From an uncultured Candidatus Saccharibacteria bacterium (GTDB taxonomy: Bacteria > Patescibacteriota > Minisyncoccia > UBA6257 > UBA9933), in assembly GCA_964642155.1 (NCBI GenBank), contig CAZXNT010000001.1, positions 131,238 to 170,226 of the forward strand: DNA of 38,989 bases, written 5' to 3'. A program made the position numbers and the translations under genes. A model generated the notes under the pieces. It was not told where the DNA came from. It did not search any database and worked only from the letters and a program-made list of their open reading frames with translations. Shown in pieces: positions 6,120 to 26,128 of this stretch (its first letter is position 1; each line of letters opens with the position of its first letter).

Positions 6120-6439
6120 CCCAGTAGAGGAATTTCAAATTCAAAAAGAATTTTTTAATTCCTTATTTTTTGCAATAATTGTCTTAATCTTAATTTCATA
6201 AATCTGCGACCTTGTGTTGTTTTTAAATATTTTTCTCTTCTCCTTGAATCTTCCTCATTTATACAGGCTTCAACATAAATTAATATCAATGGCAATCTCC
6301 CTTTTGTTGAAAAATTCTTTTTGGCATTATGTTCTTCAATCCTTCTTTTTAAATTATTAGTATAGCCAATATAAAATTTATCATCTTTTTTACTTAATAA
6401 GACATAAACATAATGCCATTTTGAAATTCTCATACTGGG
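6120..6439. mobile_element. GIY-YIG gene cassette bounded by 20-bp imperfect inverted repeats
   Basis: CCCAGTAGAGGAATTTCAAA (6120-6139) vs reverse complement of 6420-6439 CCCAGTATGAGAATTTCAAA, 17/20. Confidence 0.5.
6155..6433 (-). CDS. Small GIY-YIG nuclease family protein
   Basis: YVYVL..FYIGYTNNLKRR..EHN..RREKYLK. Confidence 0.9.
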   Translation of the reverse strand: MRISKWHYVYVLLSKKDDKFYIGYTNNLKRRIEEHNAKKNFSTKGRLPLILIYVEACINEEDSRRREKYLKTTQGRRFMKLRLRQLLQKIRN

Positions 6440-18335: not shown

Positions 18336-19352
18336 ATGGCAAAAAAAGACGAACAAAAAAACGATTTGGATAATCTTCTTAAATCTCTTCAAGAAAAATT
18401 CGGCGAAGGCGCGGTGATGAAACTGGGCGATATAAAAAGAGTTGACGTGGCGGTTGTTCCAACCGGCTCTTATTCTCTTGATATGGCATTGGGAGTCGGT
18501 GGTTTTCCAAGGGGCAGGATTATTGAAATTTTCGGTCCGGAAAGTTCCGGTAAAACCACTCTCGCGCTTCACGCGGTTGCCGAAGCTCAGAAAGCCGGCG
18601 GCAAAGCGGCTTTTATTGACGCGGAGCATGCTATGGACCCGGAATACGCGAAAAAAATAGGCGTGAAAACCAATGAGCTTATTATTTCCCAGCCGGATTC
18701 GGGCGAAGAGGCGTTGAATATTTTGGAAAGCTTGGTGCGTTCGGGAATAATTGACATTATTGTTATTGATTCTGTTGCCGCGCTTACGCCGAAAATTGAA
18801 ATTGAAGGCGAAATGGGCGCGCAATATATCGGGCTTCAGGCAAGAATGATGTCGCAGGCCTTGCGAAAACTCACGGCGATTTCCGCCAAATCAAACACTT
18901 TAATTATTTTTATAAACCAATTACGCGATAAAATCGGAATGATGGGGTATGGCGATCCGACCACCACTCCGGGCGGCCGGGCTTTGAAATTTTACGCTTC
19001 AGTGAGAATAGATATTCGTCGCATCGCGCAAATTAAAAAAGGCGAAGACTCTGTCGGTAACCGCGTCAAGGCGAAGGTGGCGAAAAATAAAGTGGCGCCG
19101 CCGTTTAAAGTCGCGGAATTTGATATTATGTTCGGCGAAGGCATATCATACGCGGGCGATATTTTAAACTGCGCGATTAAGGCGGGCGTTGTAAGCAAGG
19201 CGGGGAACACTTATAGTTTTTCCGCCGAAGGCGGATCCGCCTCTGGCGGAGAAGCCATAAAGCTGGGAGTGGGGATGGAAGCGGCGCGGGAAAAATTAAA
19301 AGAAGACAAGCAACTACTTAACAAAATCAAGAAAGCGCTTCAAGGGAAATAA
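18336..19352 (+). CDS. recA: Recombinase A (with 10-aa insert)
   Basis: [37 protein letters not shown]. Confidence 0.98.
19221..19250. repeat. 30-bp twin-hairpin insert in recA
   Basis: TCCGCC GAA GGCGGA + TCCGCC TCT GGCGGA, encoding [10 protein letters not shown]. Confidence 0.9.
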
Positions 19353-21241: not shown

Positions 21242-21745
21242 CTATTCTTTAAATTTTTCTGTAAATTTAGGTAATTTGTCGTACATTCCCCACTTATAAA
21301 GACGATATAATGATTTAAATCTATCAGAAACATCCGGATCGTTACCGATTTTTTCAAGCCAATTTATGAATTGCACACCTTTATGACCTTTTAGTTTCTT
21401 ATAAAAAAGTGGAATTATAATATCTTTAAGTTGATCAAATTCTCTTACTACAAGTACAACAGCATTTCCTCTATTGTATCCGTCTTTATTTGATGGGGTC
21501 CGGATATATAAAGAGTTTTTTAATTTTAAAGTGTTTCGCATCATTCTCAATAGTTCTTCATCTCTTTCGTGCATAGCAATAACAAATGCCGGCACCACCC
21601 TTTTCTTTTTAATATTTAATTTTTTACTAATATTATTTGTATAAAAAGTAAAACACCCTTCTCCTTCAACTAATCCGCGAATATATTCATAGCTTAATTT
21701 ATGGGAATTTTGTTTATCTTGTTGGTTGTGAAACTTTTGTTCCAT
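21242..21745 (-). CDS. Single-motif LAGLIDADG endonuclease-like protein
   Basis: YIRGLVEGEGCF, F.I.M..RD..LL, IIPLF..LKG.K..QF..W. Confidence 0.85.
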   Translation of the reverse strand: MEQKFHNQQDKQNSHKLSYEYIRGLVEGEGCFTFYTNNISKKLNIKKKRVVPAFVIAMHERDEELLRMMRNTLKLKNSLYIRTPSNKDGYNRGNAVVLVVREFDQLKDIIIPLFYKKLKGHKGVQFINWLEKIGNDPDVSDRFKSLYRLYKWGMYDKLPKFTEKFKE

Positions 21746-22252: not shown

Positions 22253-23209
22253 ATGAATATTATTAATGGTAAACAAATATCTCAAAAAATTATTGATGAA
22301 TTAAAATCGCGGCCAAAGCCGGATAAAATTTTTGCGGCGGTTTTGGTTGGCGACCCTTCGGCAAGGACTTCGAGTGAGCCTCAGTCGAACTCCTCAGGGC
22401 AAGCAAGCTTGAGTTTTTTAAAACAAAAAGAAAAAGTTGCCAAAGAGCTCGGCATTGATTTTCGGATTTACAAATTTCAAGAGCCGGTTGGCGGATTCAC
22501 CAACGATTTTTTACGGAAAGAAGTCGGCAAAATCGCTTTATTGAAAAGAGTCGGCGGAGTGATTATCCAATTGCCCTTGCCGGAGCAGATTAATCGCCAG
22601 TATGTTTTAAACGTTATTCCGCGCGAAAAAGATGTTGATGTTTTAGGGGAGCGTGCCCTCGGAGCGTTTTGTGTTGGTCGCAATCCGGTTTTACCCCCGC
22701 CAGTCGAAGTCGTAAAAGAAATAATTGAAAATTGTAAACCCCGACGCCGAAGGATCGGGGAGCCGATTGAAGCATCGGCTTTAAAAATTGAAAATTTGCG
22801 CATAGCCGTTGTGGGCGCGGGATTTTTAATCGGCAAACCGATTGCGGTTTGGCTGATGGATAAAGTTTGGGAATTAAAAATTTTTAAAAGGGGCAGTGAT
22901 TTATCAGAATTAAAAAATTATGATTTAATTATTAGCGGAACAGGCGTTGCGGGTTTAATAAAGCCGGAGATGTTAAAACAAGGCGCGGGGATAATCGATT
23001 TCGGATATTCAATTAATGAAATCGGAAAAATTAGCGGCGATTTTGACACAAGCAATCTACAATCTACAAACTATGTCCCTACGGGACATCTCTCGAAGGG
23101 AGACAATCTACAACCCGGTTTTTACACGCCCACTCCTAATGGCACGGGTCCGATATTGGTGGCAAAAATTTTTGAGAATTTTTATAAATTAAATTCAGGC
23201 GAGTTATAA
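22253..23209 (+). CDS. folD: Methylenetetrahydrofolate dehydrogenase/cyclohydrolase with three repeat-derived inserts
   Basis: IINGK, VLVGD, IQLPLP, EKDVD, GKP, TPTPNGTGP. Confidence 0.9.
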   Translation: MNIINGKQISQKIIDELKSRPKPDKIFAAVLVGDPSARTSSEPQSNSSGQASLSFLKQKEKVAKELGIDFRIYKFQEPVGGFTNDFLRKEVGKIALLKRVGGVIIQLPLPEQINRQYVLNVIPREKDVDVLGERALGAFCVGRNPVLPPPVEVVKEIIENCKPRRRRIGEPIEASALKIENLRIAVVGAGFLIGKPIAVWLMDKVWELKIFKRGSDLSELKNYDLIISGTGVAGLIKPEMLKQGAGIIDFGYSINEIGKISGDFDTSNLQSTNYVPTGHLSKGDNLQPGFYTPTPNGTGPILVAKIFENFYKLNSGEL

Positions 23210-23216
23210 ATTTATC

Positions 23217-23254
23217 TATTACATTTCAACTGCGATAGCAGTTGAAATGTAATA
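23217..23254 (+). repeat. 38-bp GATA-loop palindrome, copy 1
   Basis: TATTACATTTCAACTGC GATA GCAGTTGAAATGTAATA, perfect 17-bp arms. Confidence 0.9.
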
Positions 23255-24934: not shown

Positions 24935-26128
24935 TTATAGCAGATTAAAGATTTTTTTAATAATTTTAAGCGCGTTGTTTATTTCTTCTCTTGTCGTGAA
25001 TTTTCCCAAACTAAATCGCAAACTGCTTTTGATTTTTTTATCGCTTAATCCGATGGCTTTGAGGACGTGCGACGGTTTAGTTACGCGCGCCGAGCAAGCG
25101 GAACCGCTTGAAACCGCGATGCCGTTTAAGTCCAGCTCCATCAATAAATCTTGCGTGTTTTGATTGGGGAAATAAATATTTAGAATGTTTGGCAGTTTGT
25201 TGCCTAATGCTCCATTTATCTTCGCGTCAGGATAATTTTTTTTAATTTCTTTCCAAAAATAACCAGTCAATTCAAAAATTCGTTTTGTTTCTTTTCCGCG
25301 ATTTTGAACAGCTAATTCAACGGCTTTTGTAAAGCCGACGATTCCAGCGACATTTTCAGTGCCCGAGCGCAATCCGAATTCCTGACCGCCGCCGGTGGTA
25401 TTAGATTGTAGATTGTAGATTGTAGATTGTAGATTGCGATACAACATTCCAACACCTTTTGGGCCGTAAATTTTATGCGCTGACAAAGTCATTAAATCAA
25501 CGCCAAGTTTATTAACATCGCAATCCAAAAATTGAAAGGCCTGAACGGCGTCAGTGTGGAGCAACGGCAAAGCCGTTGCTAATTCAGAATTGTTTTTTCT
25601 TAATTCTGCATTCTGCATTTTAAATTCAGAAATCAGCTTGCTGATTTCTGTGATTGGCTGGATTGTGCCGATTTCATTATTGGCATACATAATAGAAACC
25701 AAAACAGTTCGCTCATTAAGCGATTCTTTTAATTTTTTTAAATTAACAATCCCCTGTTTATTGACCGGTAAATAAATTATTTCAATCCCTTCGCGTTCTA
25801 AGTCCCGGCAAGTTTCTAAAATAGAATCATGTTCAATTGAAGAAACAATAATGCGAGGATTTGGGATTTTAAATCTTTTAACAGCGCCGCGCAAGGCCAA
25901 GTTATTCGCTTCGGTCGCCGACCCGGTAAAAATTATTTCTCGAAAATCCGCGCCAATGGCTTTGGCGATTTTTTCTCGCGATTCGTCAACCGCTGCCATG
26001 GCTTCCTGCCCAAAAAAATGGAGCGAGCCGGGATTGCCGAATTTGTCGGAAAAATAAGGAGCCATCGCTTTTTTTACCAAGGGGTCCATCGGCGTTGTTG
26101 CCGCGTAATCAAGATATATCTTCTTCAT
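24935..26128 (-). CDS. iscS: Cysteine desulfurase, IscS/NifS family
   Basis: YLDYAATTP, GNPGS, SATEANN, HTDAVQ, SAHKIYGPKG, SSGSACS. Confidence 0.92.
   Translation of the reverse strand: MKKIYLDYAATTPMDPLVKKAMAPYFSDKFGNPGSLHFFGQEAMAAVDESREKIAKAIGADFREIIFTGSATEANNLALRGAVKRFKIPNPRIIVSSIEHDSILETCRDLEREGIEIIYLPVNKQGIVNLKKLKESLNERTVLVSIMYANNEIGTIQPITEISKLISEFKMQNAELRKNNSELATALPLLHTDAVQAFQFLDCDVNKLGVDLMTLSAHKIYGPKGVGMLYRNLQSTIYNLQSNTTGGGQEFGLRSGTENVAGIVGFTKAVELAVQNRGKETKRIFELTGYFWKEIKKNYPDAKINGALGNKLPNILNIYFPNQNTQDLLMELDLNGIAVSSGSACSARVTKPSHVLKAIGLSDKKIKSSLRFSLGKFTTREEINNALKIIKKIFNLL
25402..25436. repeat. (TAGATTG)x5 tandem repeat inside iscS
   Basis: Five perfect 7-mers, translated NLQSTIYNLQS. 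Confidence 0.95.

What the first reader, a model, noticed from the sequence alone, without database searches (positions are those of the whole stretch)
19221..19250. 30-nt twin-hairpin inserts with identical geometry but different sequence in recA and folD
Seen: recA has TCCGCC GAA GGCGGA + TCCGCC TCT GGCGGA; folD 23074-23103 has TGTCCC TAC GGGACA + TCTCTC GAA GGGAGA. Each is two abutting 15-nt hairpins (6-bp stem, 3-nt loop) adding 10 aa in frame. Inference: a structure-defined, frame-preserving insertion element, analogous in effect to Rickettsia palindromic elements but far smaller.
Basis: partly seen in the sequence, partly recalled or inferred. Interest (0 to 1): 0.75.

Follow-up and report, generated by a model that had tools for sequence, protein, structure and literature searches.

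The report
Tiny twin-hairpin DNA inserts inside genes
The two 30-base inserts in recA and folD are copies of a very small, GC-rich, hairpin-forming mobile DNA element that lands without any duplication at short T-rich/A-rich sites inside essential genes of ultra-small (CPR) bacteria and is simply translated as an extra ten-residue loop.

Summary
recA 19221-19250 and folD 23074-23103 are each two abutting 6-3-6 hairpins. Each is a clean 10-codon insert that the aligned relatives lack.

They belong to a family. The 676-kb genome has 6 perfect abutting pairs, against 0.4 in shuffles, and 12 members in all. A degenerate pattern finds them in 20 of 41 related genomes, with 0 hits to the reversed control.

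There are two sub-families. The TCCGCC type (recA) reads Ser-Ala-x-Gly-Gly twice. The TCTCCC/TGTCCC type (folD) is read in any frame.

Insertion is exact, with no target duplication:
- TCCGCC type at TTT^AAA.
- TCTCCC/TGTCCC type at TTG^CAA/AAA, often inside AT-rich 7-nt tandem arrays.

Stems stay paired through compensatory changes. Copies within a genome are more alike than copies between genomes.

My reading is a non-autonomous mobile DNA element recognised as DNA hairpins. The enzyme is unknown. This genome has no Y1, TnpB, DDE or DUF559 gene. Small tRNA-linked GIY-YIG nuclease cassettes carry the folD-type element at their edge.

This scan met the TCCGCC element before in other genomes. 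My five library searches found no paper on it.

The parts
19221..19250 (+). Class-1 twin hairpin (TCCGCC-GAA-GGCGGA + TCCGCC-TCT-GGCGGA) in recA, read as [10 protein letters not shown]. Inserted at AGTTTT^GAAG.
18336..19352 (+). recA host gene. The insert lies between the conserved NTYSF and KLGVG segments of the C-terminal domain.
23074..23103 (+). Class-2 twin hairpin (TGTCCC-TAC-GGGACA + TCTCTC-GAA-GGGAGA) in folD, starting at codon position 3.
23053..23073 (+). CAATCTA heptamer array (3 units) to the left of the folD twin. It continues as CAATCTACAA at 23104-23113. Relatives have an (ATTGAAA)n array (IENCKLKIEN) at this place.
23104..23113 (+). Right-hand continuation of the heptamer array (CAATCTACAA). 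It supplies the ^CAA side of the target.
22739..22780 (+). Second hairpin insert in folD (42 nt): CCCCGA..TCGGGG + AGCCGAT-TGAAGC-ATCGGCT, between IENCK and LKIENLR. It is unique in this genome. G009, G006 and G034 carry other inserts at the same site.
22355..22401 (+). First hairpin-rich insert in folD (about 42 nt extra against relatives). A 47-nt stretch recurs at 46 of 47 identity on contig C8:14344-14390.
22253..23209 (+). folD host gene (THF_DHG_CYH and THF_DHG_CYH_C domains).

Best explanation
The two inserts are copies of a family of 30-bp non-autonomous mobile DNA elements. Each element is an inverted pair of 15-nt GC-rich units (6-bp stem, 3-nt loop).

Shown:
- The element enters DNA exactly, adding 30 bp and duplicating nothing.
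- It lands at the centre of a short T-rich/A-rich motif: TTT^AAA for the TCCGCC type, TTG^CAA/AAA for the TCTCCC/TGTCCC type.
- AT-rich heptamer arrays, which repeat that motif, are favoured landing places.
- Copies multiply within a genome.
- The same sites are hit independently in different genera.
- The stems stay complementary through compensatory changes.

Inferred:
- The element is recognised as single-stranded or cruciform DNA hairpins, not as RNA.
- In genes, only copies survive that keep the frame (30 = 10 codons), give a harmless peptide (Ser-Ala-x-Gly-Gly twice for the TCCGCC type) and lie in loops. They are translated, not removed.

The enzyme is not identified. My best candidate, at about 25-30%, is the small GIY-YIG nuclease encoded by tRNA-gene-linked cassettes. 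Several of these cassettes carry a class-2 twin at their 5' edge.
For: Filled versus empty sites, each an exact 30-nt difference with no duplication:
- recA against G002.
- UvrD against G002, CAATTTC^CAATTTC.
- Mur ligase against G021.
- A 150-nt AT-rich repeat in G000, with 3 copies filled and 4 empty.

Enrichment and spread:
- 6 against 0.4 abutting pairs.
- TCCGCC pattern in 21 of 41 relatives and 26 of 401 genomes sampled across the phylum, with 0 reversed-control hits.
- Degenerate pattern in 20 of 41 relatives.
- At least 123 metagenome stretches for one class-2 pattern.

Target:
- Class 1 (n=61): -2 T in 50, +2 A in 54, +1 A/G in 55.
- Class 2 (n=32): -2 T in 28, +2 A in 31.
- Independent metagenome set (n=71): -2 T in 70, -1 G in 51, +2 A in 63.

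Recurrent hits:
- The ThrRS site PDF^KNK is filled in G003 and G012 only, out of 30 relatives. Eleven close relatives are empty.

Amplification:
- Pairs with at most 1 difference make up 12.7% within genomes and 5.0% between genomes (0 of 2000 label shuffles reach this).
- The TCTCGC/TCTGGC variant occurs only in G000, in the cassette and in the Mur gene, at 29 of 30 identity.

Structure:
- The twin fold has 97.9% of cells paired, against 83.5% in shuffles (0 of 500), with 10 of 12 pairs changed on both sides.
- A single long hairpin has only 85.5% paired.
- As single-stranded DNA, the minimum-energy fold is the twin. As RNA, it is one long hairpin.

Phase:
- 45 of 61 class-1 copies are in phase 0.

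GIY-YIG link:
- A twin sits in the anticodon loop (CTG^CAAA) of a duplicated tRNA-Cys 5' half, directly before a GIY-YIG ORF. This holds in G000, G010 and G006 and in 6 of 80 metagenome loci.
- Twin count correlates with GIY-YIG count, Spearman 0.56.
Against: - No transposition event was seen directly.
- No enzyme is shown. The GIY-YIG link is adjacency plus a correlation among related genomes, and it may only reflect general mobile-element load. About 90% of copies are solo.
- No GIY-YIG transposase is known in prokaryotes (own knowledge).
- My 98-member set was chosen by requiring at least 11 of 12 pairs. The percentage paired is therefore inflated by selection. Only the pattern searches are free of that bias.
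- Compensatory changes could arise by quasipalindrome template switching rather than by selection (own knowledge).
- The control sites for the heptamer test come from G000 only.
- Translation and retention in mRNA are inferred; no RNA run was listed.
- The single-unit 16-nt relative in the CCA-adding enzyme gives a net +12 nt, not a clean indel.
Confidence: 0.75

Rival explanations
1. This is a REP- or IS200/IS605-type miniature element moved as single-stranded DNA by a Y1 (HUH) transposase or RAYT supplied in trans or recently lost. The two hairpins would be minimal left and right ends, and the TTG/TTT motif the left-flank target.
For: - There is no target duplication, a short motif sits on the left flank, and hairpin ends are present.
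- Y1_Tnp genes occur in 15 of 41 relatives, in 10 of 20 twin-bearing genomes against 5 of 21 without. Spearman correlation with twin count is 0.41.
- RAYT and REP biology is described in PMC3733652 (passages read).
Against: - G000 (99.7% complete) has the most copies (10) and no Y1_Tnp match. G020 has 4 copies and none.
- It also has no TnpB.
- The four Y1 loci I looked at, out of 25 matches, have no twin units beside them.
- There is no GTAG or CGTC tag.
- A 30-nt element leaves no room for the guide sequences of IS608-type ends (own knowledge).
Confidence: 0.13
2. Each insert arises on the spot by replication slippage, fold-back synthesis or break repair at T-run/A-run sites. There is no element that moves.
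For: - The flanks are slippage-prone AT-rich repeats.
- Perfect stems could come from fold-back copying.
- Loops vary between copies.
Against: - The same 12 stem bases per unit recur in unrelated genes, genera and habitats.
- The inserted bases are unrelated to the flanks.
- Copies within a genome resemble each other.
- The 30-mer is a high-copy repeat in the metagenomes, at depth 78-113 against about 6-14 in the neighbouring recA bins.
Confidence: 0.05
3. The hairpins are kept by the host for a function: mRNA structure that tunes translation or stability, or a useful flexible Gly/Ser loop in the proteins.
For: - The stems are conserved better than expected for silent sites at shared sites.
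- RNA folds are strong, -27.3 kcal/mol for the recA copy.
- Class-1 copies are nearly always in the Ser-Ala-x-Gly-Gly phase.
Against: - Presence is patchy among close relatives for the same essential gene.
- The host genes are unrelated, and copies also lie in intergenic repeats and tRNA remnants.
- Class-2 copies are read in all three phases, 8/7/8.
- The conserved pairing is that of the twin fold, while the RNA minimum-energy fold is a different, long hairpin.
Confidence: 0.05
4. The inserts are assembly or sequencing artefacts.
For: Short-read graphs break at the 30-mer. Contigs end at 19250 and start at 19221.
Against: - Both junctions are seen with 0 differences in three further samples.
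- Copies occur in 20 of 41 separately assembled genomes.
- They are in frame and at one kind of target.
- The reversed-pattern controls give 0 hits.
Confidence: 0.02

Closest known systems
Rickettsia palindromic elements (RPEs). Described in the MITE review PMC10969869; passages read.
   Same: Palindromic repeats that insert in frame into unrelated housekeeping genes of a reduced genome. They are translated as extra peptide segments compatible with protein function.
   Different: RPEs are about 150 bp, in ten families, each encoding a conserved peptide, and are confined to Rickettsia (review text). This element is 30 bp, is built of two 15-nt units, has a defined TTN^NAA target without duplication, and occurs in Patescibacteria. 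I did not compare sequences with RPEs, as I had no RPE sequence to hand.
REP / REPIN / BIME elements with RAYT transposases, GTAG- and CGTC-tagged REPs (PMC3733652; abstract and passages read).
   Same: Palindromes of 20-40 bp, often as inverted dimers. Some lie inside replication and repair genes. They are thought to move as hairpin DNA. CGTC REPs also lack a dedicated transposase.
   Different: There is no GTAG or CGTC tag and no RAYT or Y1 gene in this genome. Most copies here are intragenic, 79 of 98 in ORFs of at least 80 aa, while REPs are mostly extragenic. The units abut with no spacer, and the triloops are closed by C-G.
Mitochondrial repetitive hairpin-forming elements, especially the double-hairpin elements of Allomyces mtDNA (as summarised in PMC2800124; passages read).
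   Same: Two adjacent GC-rich hairpins in an AT-rich small genome. They are found in intergenic DNA and in variable parts of genes, have no flanking duplication, and are not removed from transcripts.
   Different: Those elements are organellar. Sizes of up to 84 bp are given for the sponge elements. The paper discusses an RNA intermediate for them. Here the host is bacterial, the element is 30 bp, a target motif is defined, and the pairing evidence points to DNA-level hairpins.
IS200/IS605-derived miniature elements
   Same: Insertion beside a short specific motif, no target duplication, and hairpins at both ends.
   Different: Those are usually 100 bp or more, carry guide sequences next to the hairpins, and depend on a Y1 transposase. 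None of this was found here.

Membership tests
Rickettsia palindromic elements | In-frame insertion into unrelated protein-coding genes | tested here: met
   recA, folD, UvrD, Mur ligase, TyrRS-like, MiaA-like, TrxB-like and ThrRS genes
Rickettsia palindromic elements | Length of about 100-150 bp, encoding a conserved peptide module | tested here: not met
   The element is 30 bp. The class-1 peptide is SAxGGSAxGG only, and class 2 is read in three phases.
Rickettsia palindromic elements | Sequence relatedness to RPE families | not tested
   No RPE sequence was available from a tool.
REP/REPIN with RAYT | Conserved GTAG (or CGTC) tag at one end of the palindrome | tested here: not met
   Units start with TC/TG/CC and end with GA/CA/GG. 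GTAG appears only where a loop happens to be GTA (alignment A1).
REP/REPIN with RAYT | RAYT or Y1 transposase gene in the genome, flanked by the repeats | tested here: not met
   There is no PF01797 match in G000. None of the four Y1 loci examined in relatives, out of 25 matches, is flanked by twin units.
REP/REPIN with RAYT | Short GC-rich palindromes, often as inverted dimers, dispersed in many copies | tested here: met
IS200/IS605-type miniature elements | No target-site duplication; insertion next to a short specific motif | tested here: met
IS200/IS605-type miniature elements | Cognate Y1 TnpA, with or without TnpB, present | tested here: not met
   (G000)
Mitochondrial double-hairpin elements / RHEs | Two adjacent hairpins, GC-rich in an AT-rich genome, no flanking duplication, located in variable parts of genes | tested here: met
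   This is a likeness in how it works, not common descent.
Mitochondrial double-hairpin elements / RHEs | Retained in transcripts | not testable with these tools
   No RNA run was listed for this DNA.

The most novel reading that the evidence does not exclude
The 30-bp twin hairpin is among the smallest target-specific mobile DNAs. It would be moved by a mechanism not yet described in bacteria. In this reading, a small structure-specific GIY-YIG nuclease, encoded by cassettes that home into tRNA genes, recognises the extruded hairpins. It cuts bluntly at the centre of TTN^NAA motifs and lets the palindromic module be copied in without any duplication. AT-rich heptamer arrays serve as landing pads. 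Together this would be a steady source of new surface loops in essential proteins of CPR bacteria.
Probability: 0.15. Interest if true: 0.85.

Novelty: new variant of a known kind. Interest (0 to 1): 0.62.

Why it matters
- It shows that even 0.7-Mb, highly reduced CPR genomes are being peppered with a 30-bp selfish module. That module repeatedly lengthens loops of essential proteins (RecA, FolD, UvrD, Mur ligase, aminoacyl-tRNA synthetases).
- It gives an exact target and boundaries. The question of what moves it can therefore be tested with oligonucleotides and one small protein.
- The element breaks short-read assemblies and inflates apparent protein divergence. This matters for annotating and binning CPR metagenomes.
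- The compensatory stem changes and the modular 15-nt units make it a clean natural system for studying how hairpin DNA is recognised and maintained.

Tried and rejected
- RNA evidence: the look-up of sequencing runs listed no RNA holder, so retention or removal in mRNA could not be examined.
- Rfam: on 12 regions around hairpin copies, only tRNAs (and, on the same tRNA places, sub-threshold Plastid-ycf2 matches) came up. No known RNA family explains the copies beside tRNA-like sequence.
- Y1/RAYT as the resident enzyme is rejected for G000. TnpB, DUF559, DDE_Tnp_1 and rve are also not found in G000.
- The one reverse transcriptase in G000 is part of a diversity-generating retroelement with its own template and variable repeats. 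I do not link it to the hairpins.
- Viral contigs: only 2 exact matches to the TCCGCC pattern. I did not follow them, and there is no sign that phages carry the family.
- A simple target-duplication model for the heptamer flanks (13-nt direct repeats around C1:108858) was rejected. The spacing of 44 nt is not in frame, and orthologs show that the array was there before the insert.
- The single long 13-bp hairpin as the conserved structure was rejected in favour of the twin fold.
- Alignment to solved RecA structures did not place the gap cleanly. The statement that the site is a loop rests on the ortholog alignment and on my recollection of the RecA fold.
- Literature: five searches found no description of this element. 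The library lacks most subscription journals. Supplementary tables of PMC3733652 (intragenic REP lists) were not opened.

Full report
**1. The observation**

The window reads TCCGCC GAA GGCGGA TCCGCC TCT GGCGGA at 19221-19250, inside a 338-aa RecA ORF. It reads TGTCCC TAC GGGACA TCTCTC GAA GGGAGA at 23074-23103, inside a 318-aa FolD ORF.

- The recA copy has 12 of 12 Watson-Crick pairs. The folD copy has 11 plus one G:T.
- The window is G000:C1:131238-170226. The genome is 675,835 bp in 10 contigs, 37% G+C and 99.7% complete.
- RecA relatives are named Paceibacteria, Liptonbacteria, Nomurabacteria, Saccharibacteria and 'Patescibacteria group' MAGs. This is therefore a CPR/Patescibacteria bacterium.

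**2. More than chance**

- Genome-wide there are 6 abutting perfect 6-3-6 pairs, against a mean of 0.4 (max 2) in 10 dinucleotide shuffles.
- With G:T allowed there are 19 against 9.7. Ten of the 19 are GC-rich and clearly alike.
- A relaxed scan adds C7:11581 and C10:7820, plus two degenerate candidates that I did not count as members.
- The final G000 tally is 12 members.

**3. Real insertions**

- RecA: all 18 relatives aligned lack exactly the 10 residues. My regex dropped 11 of the 29 fetched loci. The same-genus G002 (94% identical protein) reads AGTTTT|GAAGGAGAA where G000 has AGTTTT[30 nt]GAAGCCATA.
- FolD: none of 26 relatives has the 10 residues. G000 also has two further GC-rich hairpin inserts at about 22355-22396 and at 22739-22780.
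- The first of these recurs at 46 of 47 identity on contig C8.
- UvrD: G002 has CAATTTC^CAATTTC where G000 has the 30 nt. Mur ligase: G021 has GATTTT^CAATTTT.
- Within G000, a 150-nt AT-rich dispersed repeat has three copies with the twin and four without, at GTAAAATTG^AAAATTC.
- In every case the difference is exactly 30 nt and nothing is duplicated.
- Contigs from three other samples of the same study confirm both recA junctions. A relative's contig from another study spans the site with 30 gapped letters. The 30-mer is a high-copy repeat there, at depth 78-113 against about 6-14 in the neighbouring recA bins, and 1295 in a groundwater run.

**4. The family**

- TCCGCCNNNGGCGGA repeated twice (up to 2 mismatches) occurs in 21 of 41 related genomes, at 1-9 copies. 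With up to 1 mismatch it occurs in 26 of 401 genomes sampled across the phylum. The reversed control scores 0 everywhere.
- A degenerate pattern that does not demand complementarity (YSYSNC NNN GNSRSR, twice) finds copies in 20 of 41 genomes. G000 has 10, and the control again scores 0.
- From G000 and 22 relatives I collected 98 members (108 candidates, 10 removed as unlike the family). They split into:
  - 61 class 1 (both units TCCGCC-like),
  - 32 class 2 (TCTCCC, TGTCCC, CCTCCC, TCTGCC, TCCCCC, TCTCGC, TCTGGC),
  - 5 hybrids.
- recA carries class 1 and folD carries class 2.
- One class-2 pattern alone has at least 123 matches in the metagenome collection.

**5. Anatomy**

- Loops: in class 1, loop 1 is RRA-like (GAA 16, AAA 14, AGA 9, CAA 6, CGA 4) and loop 2 is TYN-like (TCT 21, TCG 16, TTC 6, TTT 6). 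In class 2, loop 1 is TNC (TAC 11, TGC 10, TTC 7) and loop 2 is GNA (GAA 15, GCA 7, GTA 6). The metagenome set shows the same loops.
- The two units are therefore an inverted pair, not a direct tandem repeat.
- Pair counts on alignment A1: the twin fold has 97.9% of 1140 cells paired, against 83.5% in shuffles (0 of 500). It has 10 of 12 pairs with changes on both sides, and 37-54% paired when slid.
- A single 13-bp hairpin has 85.5% paired.
- Caveat: I selected members by requiring at least 11 of 12 pairs, so the 97.9% is partly built in. The pattern searches were not selected that way, and nearly all their hits are complementary.
- As single-stranded DNA, the recA copy's minimum-energy fold is the twin (-12.8 kcal/mol, z = -3.5). 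As RNA, it is one long hairpin (-27.3 kcal/mol). I read this as a hint that the conserved structure acts in DNA.

**6. Target**

- Class 1 flanks: -3 T in 40, -2 T in 50 and -1 T/C in 52 of 61; +1 A/G in 55, +2 A in 54 and +3 A/G in 54 of 61. The consensus is TTT^AAA.
- Class 2 flanks: -2 T in 28 and -1 G in 16 of 32; +1 C in 20 and +2 A in 31 of 32. The consensus is TTG^CAA.
- The independent metagenome set (71 sites, oriented TCTCCC first) gives -3 T in 57, -2 T in 70, -1 G in 51, +2 A in 63 and +3 A in 55.
- About a quarter of copies lie in 7-nt-periodic flanks: 25 of 98 at autocorrelation of at least 0.6, against 2.0% of 12,590 TTN^NAA control sites in G000. Periods 6 and 8 are not raised.
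- The genome is full of such AT-rich heptamer arrays, with 337 period-7 TRF hits. Orthologs show the arrays were there before the hairpins.

**7. Selection after insertion**

- 45 of 61 class-1 copies are in phase 0, giving Ser-Ala-x-Gly-Gly twice.
- Class-2 copies are in phases 0, 1 and 2 at 8, 7 and 8.
- The length of 30 nt keeps the frame.
- folD site 2 and the CCA-enzyme loop have been hit by different palindromes in sister lineages. The surviving sites are therefore permissive loops.

**8. Mobility**

- The ThrRS site PDF^KNK is filled in G003 and G012, which are different genera. It is empty in 11 closer relatives, and G002 has another insert there.
- The RsmH site is filled by a class-1 copy in G012 and a class-2 copy in G006.
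- Copies within a genome are more alike than copies between genomes. Mean difference is 7.2 against 8.6. Pairs with at most 1 difference make up 12.7% against 5.0% (0 of 2000 shuffles). The nearest neighbour lies in the same genome 26% of the time, against 6.8% expected. The three G000 copies inside one longer repeat add to this figure.
- The TCTCGC/TCTGGC variant is seen only in G000 among the 41 genomes. It occurs twice there, at 29 of 30 identity.

**9. What moves it**

- G000 has no Y1_Tnp, TnpB, DUF559, DDE_Tnp_1 or rve match.
- Its one reverse transcriptase belongs to a diversity-generating retroelement.
- It has 9 GIY-YIG matches. All 9 are small ORFs (79-111 aa), and most of them lie beside tRNA genes.
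- At C4:45020 the layout is as follows: a duplicated tRNA-Cys 5' half, the twin exactly between anticodon-loop bases CTG and CAAA, then tRNA positions 35-46, a GIY-YIG ORF, and an intact tRNA-Cys.
- The same layout occurs in G010 and G006, with the stems differing from G000 by compensatory G:C to C:G flips. It also occurs in 6 of 80 metagenome loci.
- Other cassettes in G000 also have GC-rich hairpins between a tRNA fragment and the GIY-YIG ORF.
- Twin counts correlate with GIY-YIG counts (Spearman 0.56) and less with Y1 counts (0.41). These genomes are related, so the p-values overstate the case.
- I therefore name the GIY-YIG nuclease as the best candidate only, at roughly 25-30%.

**10. Related single units**

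- G000 also has about 12 copies of a 16-nt perfect palindrome, TCCGCC-AGCT-GGCGGA and variants.
- In long ORFs these are mostly read as x-Pro-Pro-Ala-Gly-Gly.
- In the CCA-adding enzyme the change against relatives is a net +12 nt, so that insertion is not a simple indel.

**11. Comparison with what is known**

- In-frame palindromic repeats in housekeeping genes are known from Rickettsia RPEs (PMC10969869) and from intragenic REPs (PMC3733652).
- Double-hairpin elements without flanking duplication, kept in transcripts, are known from fungal and sponge mitochondria (PMC2800124).
- This element differs in size, unit structure, target and host. It lacks the REP tag and a Y1 gene.
- Five library searches found no description of it.
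- Earlier agents of this scan described the TCCGCC element in other genomes. My results agree. They add the class-2 sub-family, the exact targets, the heptamer-array preference, the within-genome similarity and the GIY-YIG/tRNA-Cys cassette link.

**12. Verdict**

This is a real, non-random feature and a new variant of a known kind: small palindromic insertion elements. Its mode of movement is unknown and now testable.

Noticed in passing
whole genome; e.g. window 25402-25436 (TAGATTG x5), window 23053-23073: The genome is riddled with AT-rich tandem arrays of 7-nt (337 TRF hits) and 8-nt (172 hits) units, typically 4.5-5 units long. Many are in frame inside genes (ISNFQFPIS in UvrD and Mur ligase; IENCKLKIEN in relatives' FolD). 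At one UvrD site, sister species carry arrays of different unit sequence.
   Followed up: partly
G000 C4:44794-45100, C2:77031-77371, C2:145150-145518, C9:9387-9759, C4:46689-47085; window 6206-6415: Eight of the nine small GIY-YIG ORFs (79-111 aa). Five of them (C4:44794, C2:77031, C2:145213, C9:9387, C4:46879) sit beside tRNA genes. Three of these (C4:44794, C2:77031, C2:145213) lie between a duplicated tRNA 5' fragment and the intact tRNA (Cys, Phe, Glu), usually with GC-rich hairpins in between. They look like endonuclease cassettes that home into tRNA genes.
   Followed up: partly
G000 C2:116544, C3:22835, C3:69675, C3:108789, C4:59238, C4:60282, C5:17688, C5:19227, C6:14494, C10:5844, C8:7534, C9:12691: There are 16-nt perfect palindromes TCCGCC-AGCT-GGCGGA (and AGTT/AGTG/AACT/AGTC loops, or CCCGCC stems). 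They share the class-1 stem and are read as x-PPAGG in long ORFs. The insertion arithmetic (net +12 nt in the CCA enzyme) is unexplained.
   Followed up: partly
window 23219-23250; G000 C1:109333-109366, C7:15943-15978: Palindromes of about 32-36 nt, TTACATTTCAACTGC-GATA-GCAGTTGAAATGTAA and relatives, one of them lying just after folD. Other long palindrome families (ACCCAGCACATAA...TTATGTGCTGGGT; TCAATTCCCGTTATTTCAAC-GATC-...) recur on several contigs.
   Followed up: no
G000 C3:28844-32494: A diversity-generating retroelement: a 298-aa reverse transcriptase, a 139-nt template/variable repeat pair (82.7% identity) and a 604-aa target gene.
   Followed up: partly
window 21242-21745 (-): A free-standing LAGLIDADG_1 endonuclease ORF (167 aa) lies between recA and folD.
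   Followed up: partly
G000 C4:58949-58978: A degenerate twin (CCCCGT-TTC-ACGGGA + CCCCGT-TTT-GCGGGG) lies between tRNA-Lys and tRNA-Leu, next to a tRNA 3'-half-like remnant that neither ARAGORN nor Rfam calls.
   Followed up: partly
L033 (G027:C14:18292-18321): A class-1-like twin sits inside the D-loop region of a tRNA-like 5' sequence (GGGTAGCTCAGCT^GGTTAGA). I did not check whether that tRNA is functional.
   Followed up: no
L274, L275 (IMG/VR contigs): Only two viral contigs hold an exact TCCGCC twin. Their context was not examined.
   Followed up: no
G000 C2:17170-17360, C6:8005-8195, C7:4820-4960, C7:11520-11720, C7:13330-13475, C7:19500-19650, C1:63330-63450: A dispersed AT-rich repeat of about 150 nt with seven copies. 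Three carry the class-2 twin at one position. Its own nature (promoter region, or an element) is unknown.
   Followed up: partly
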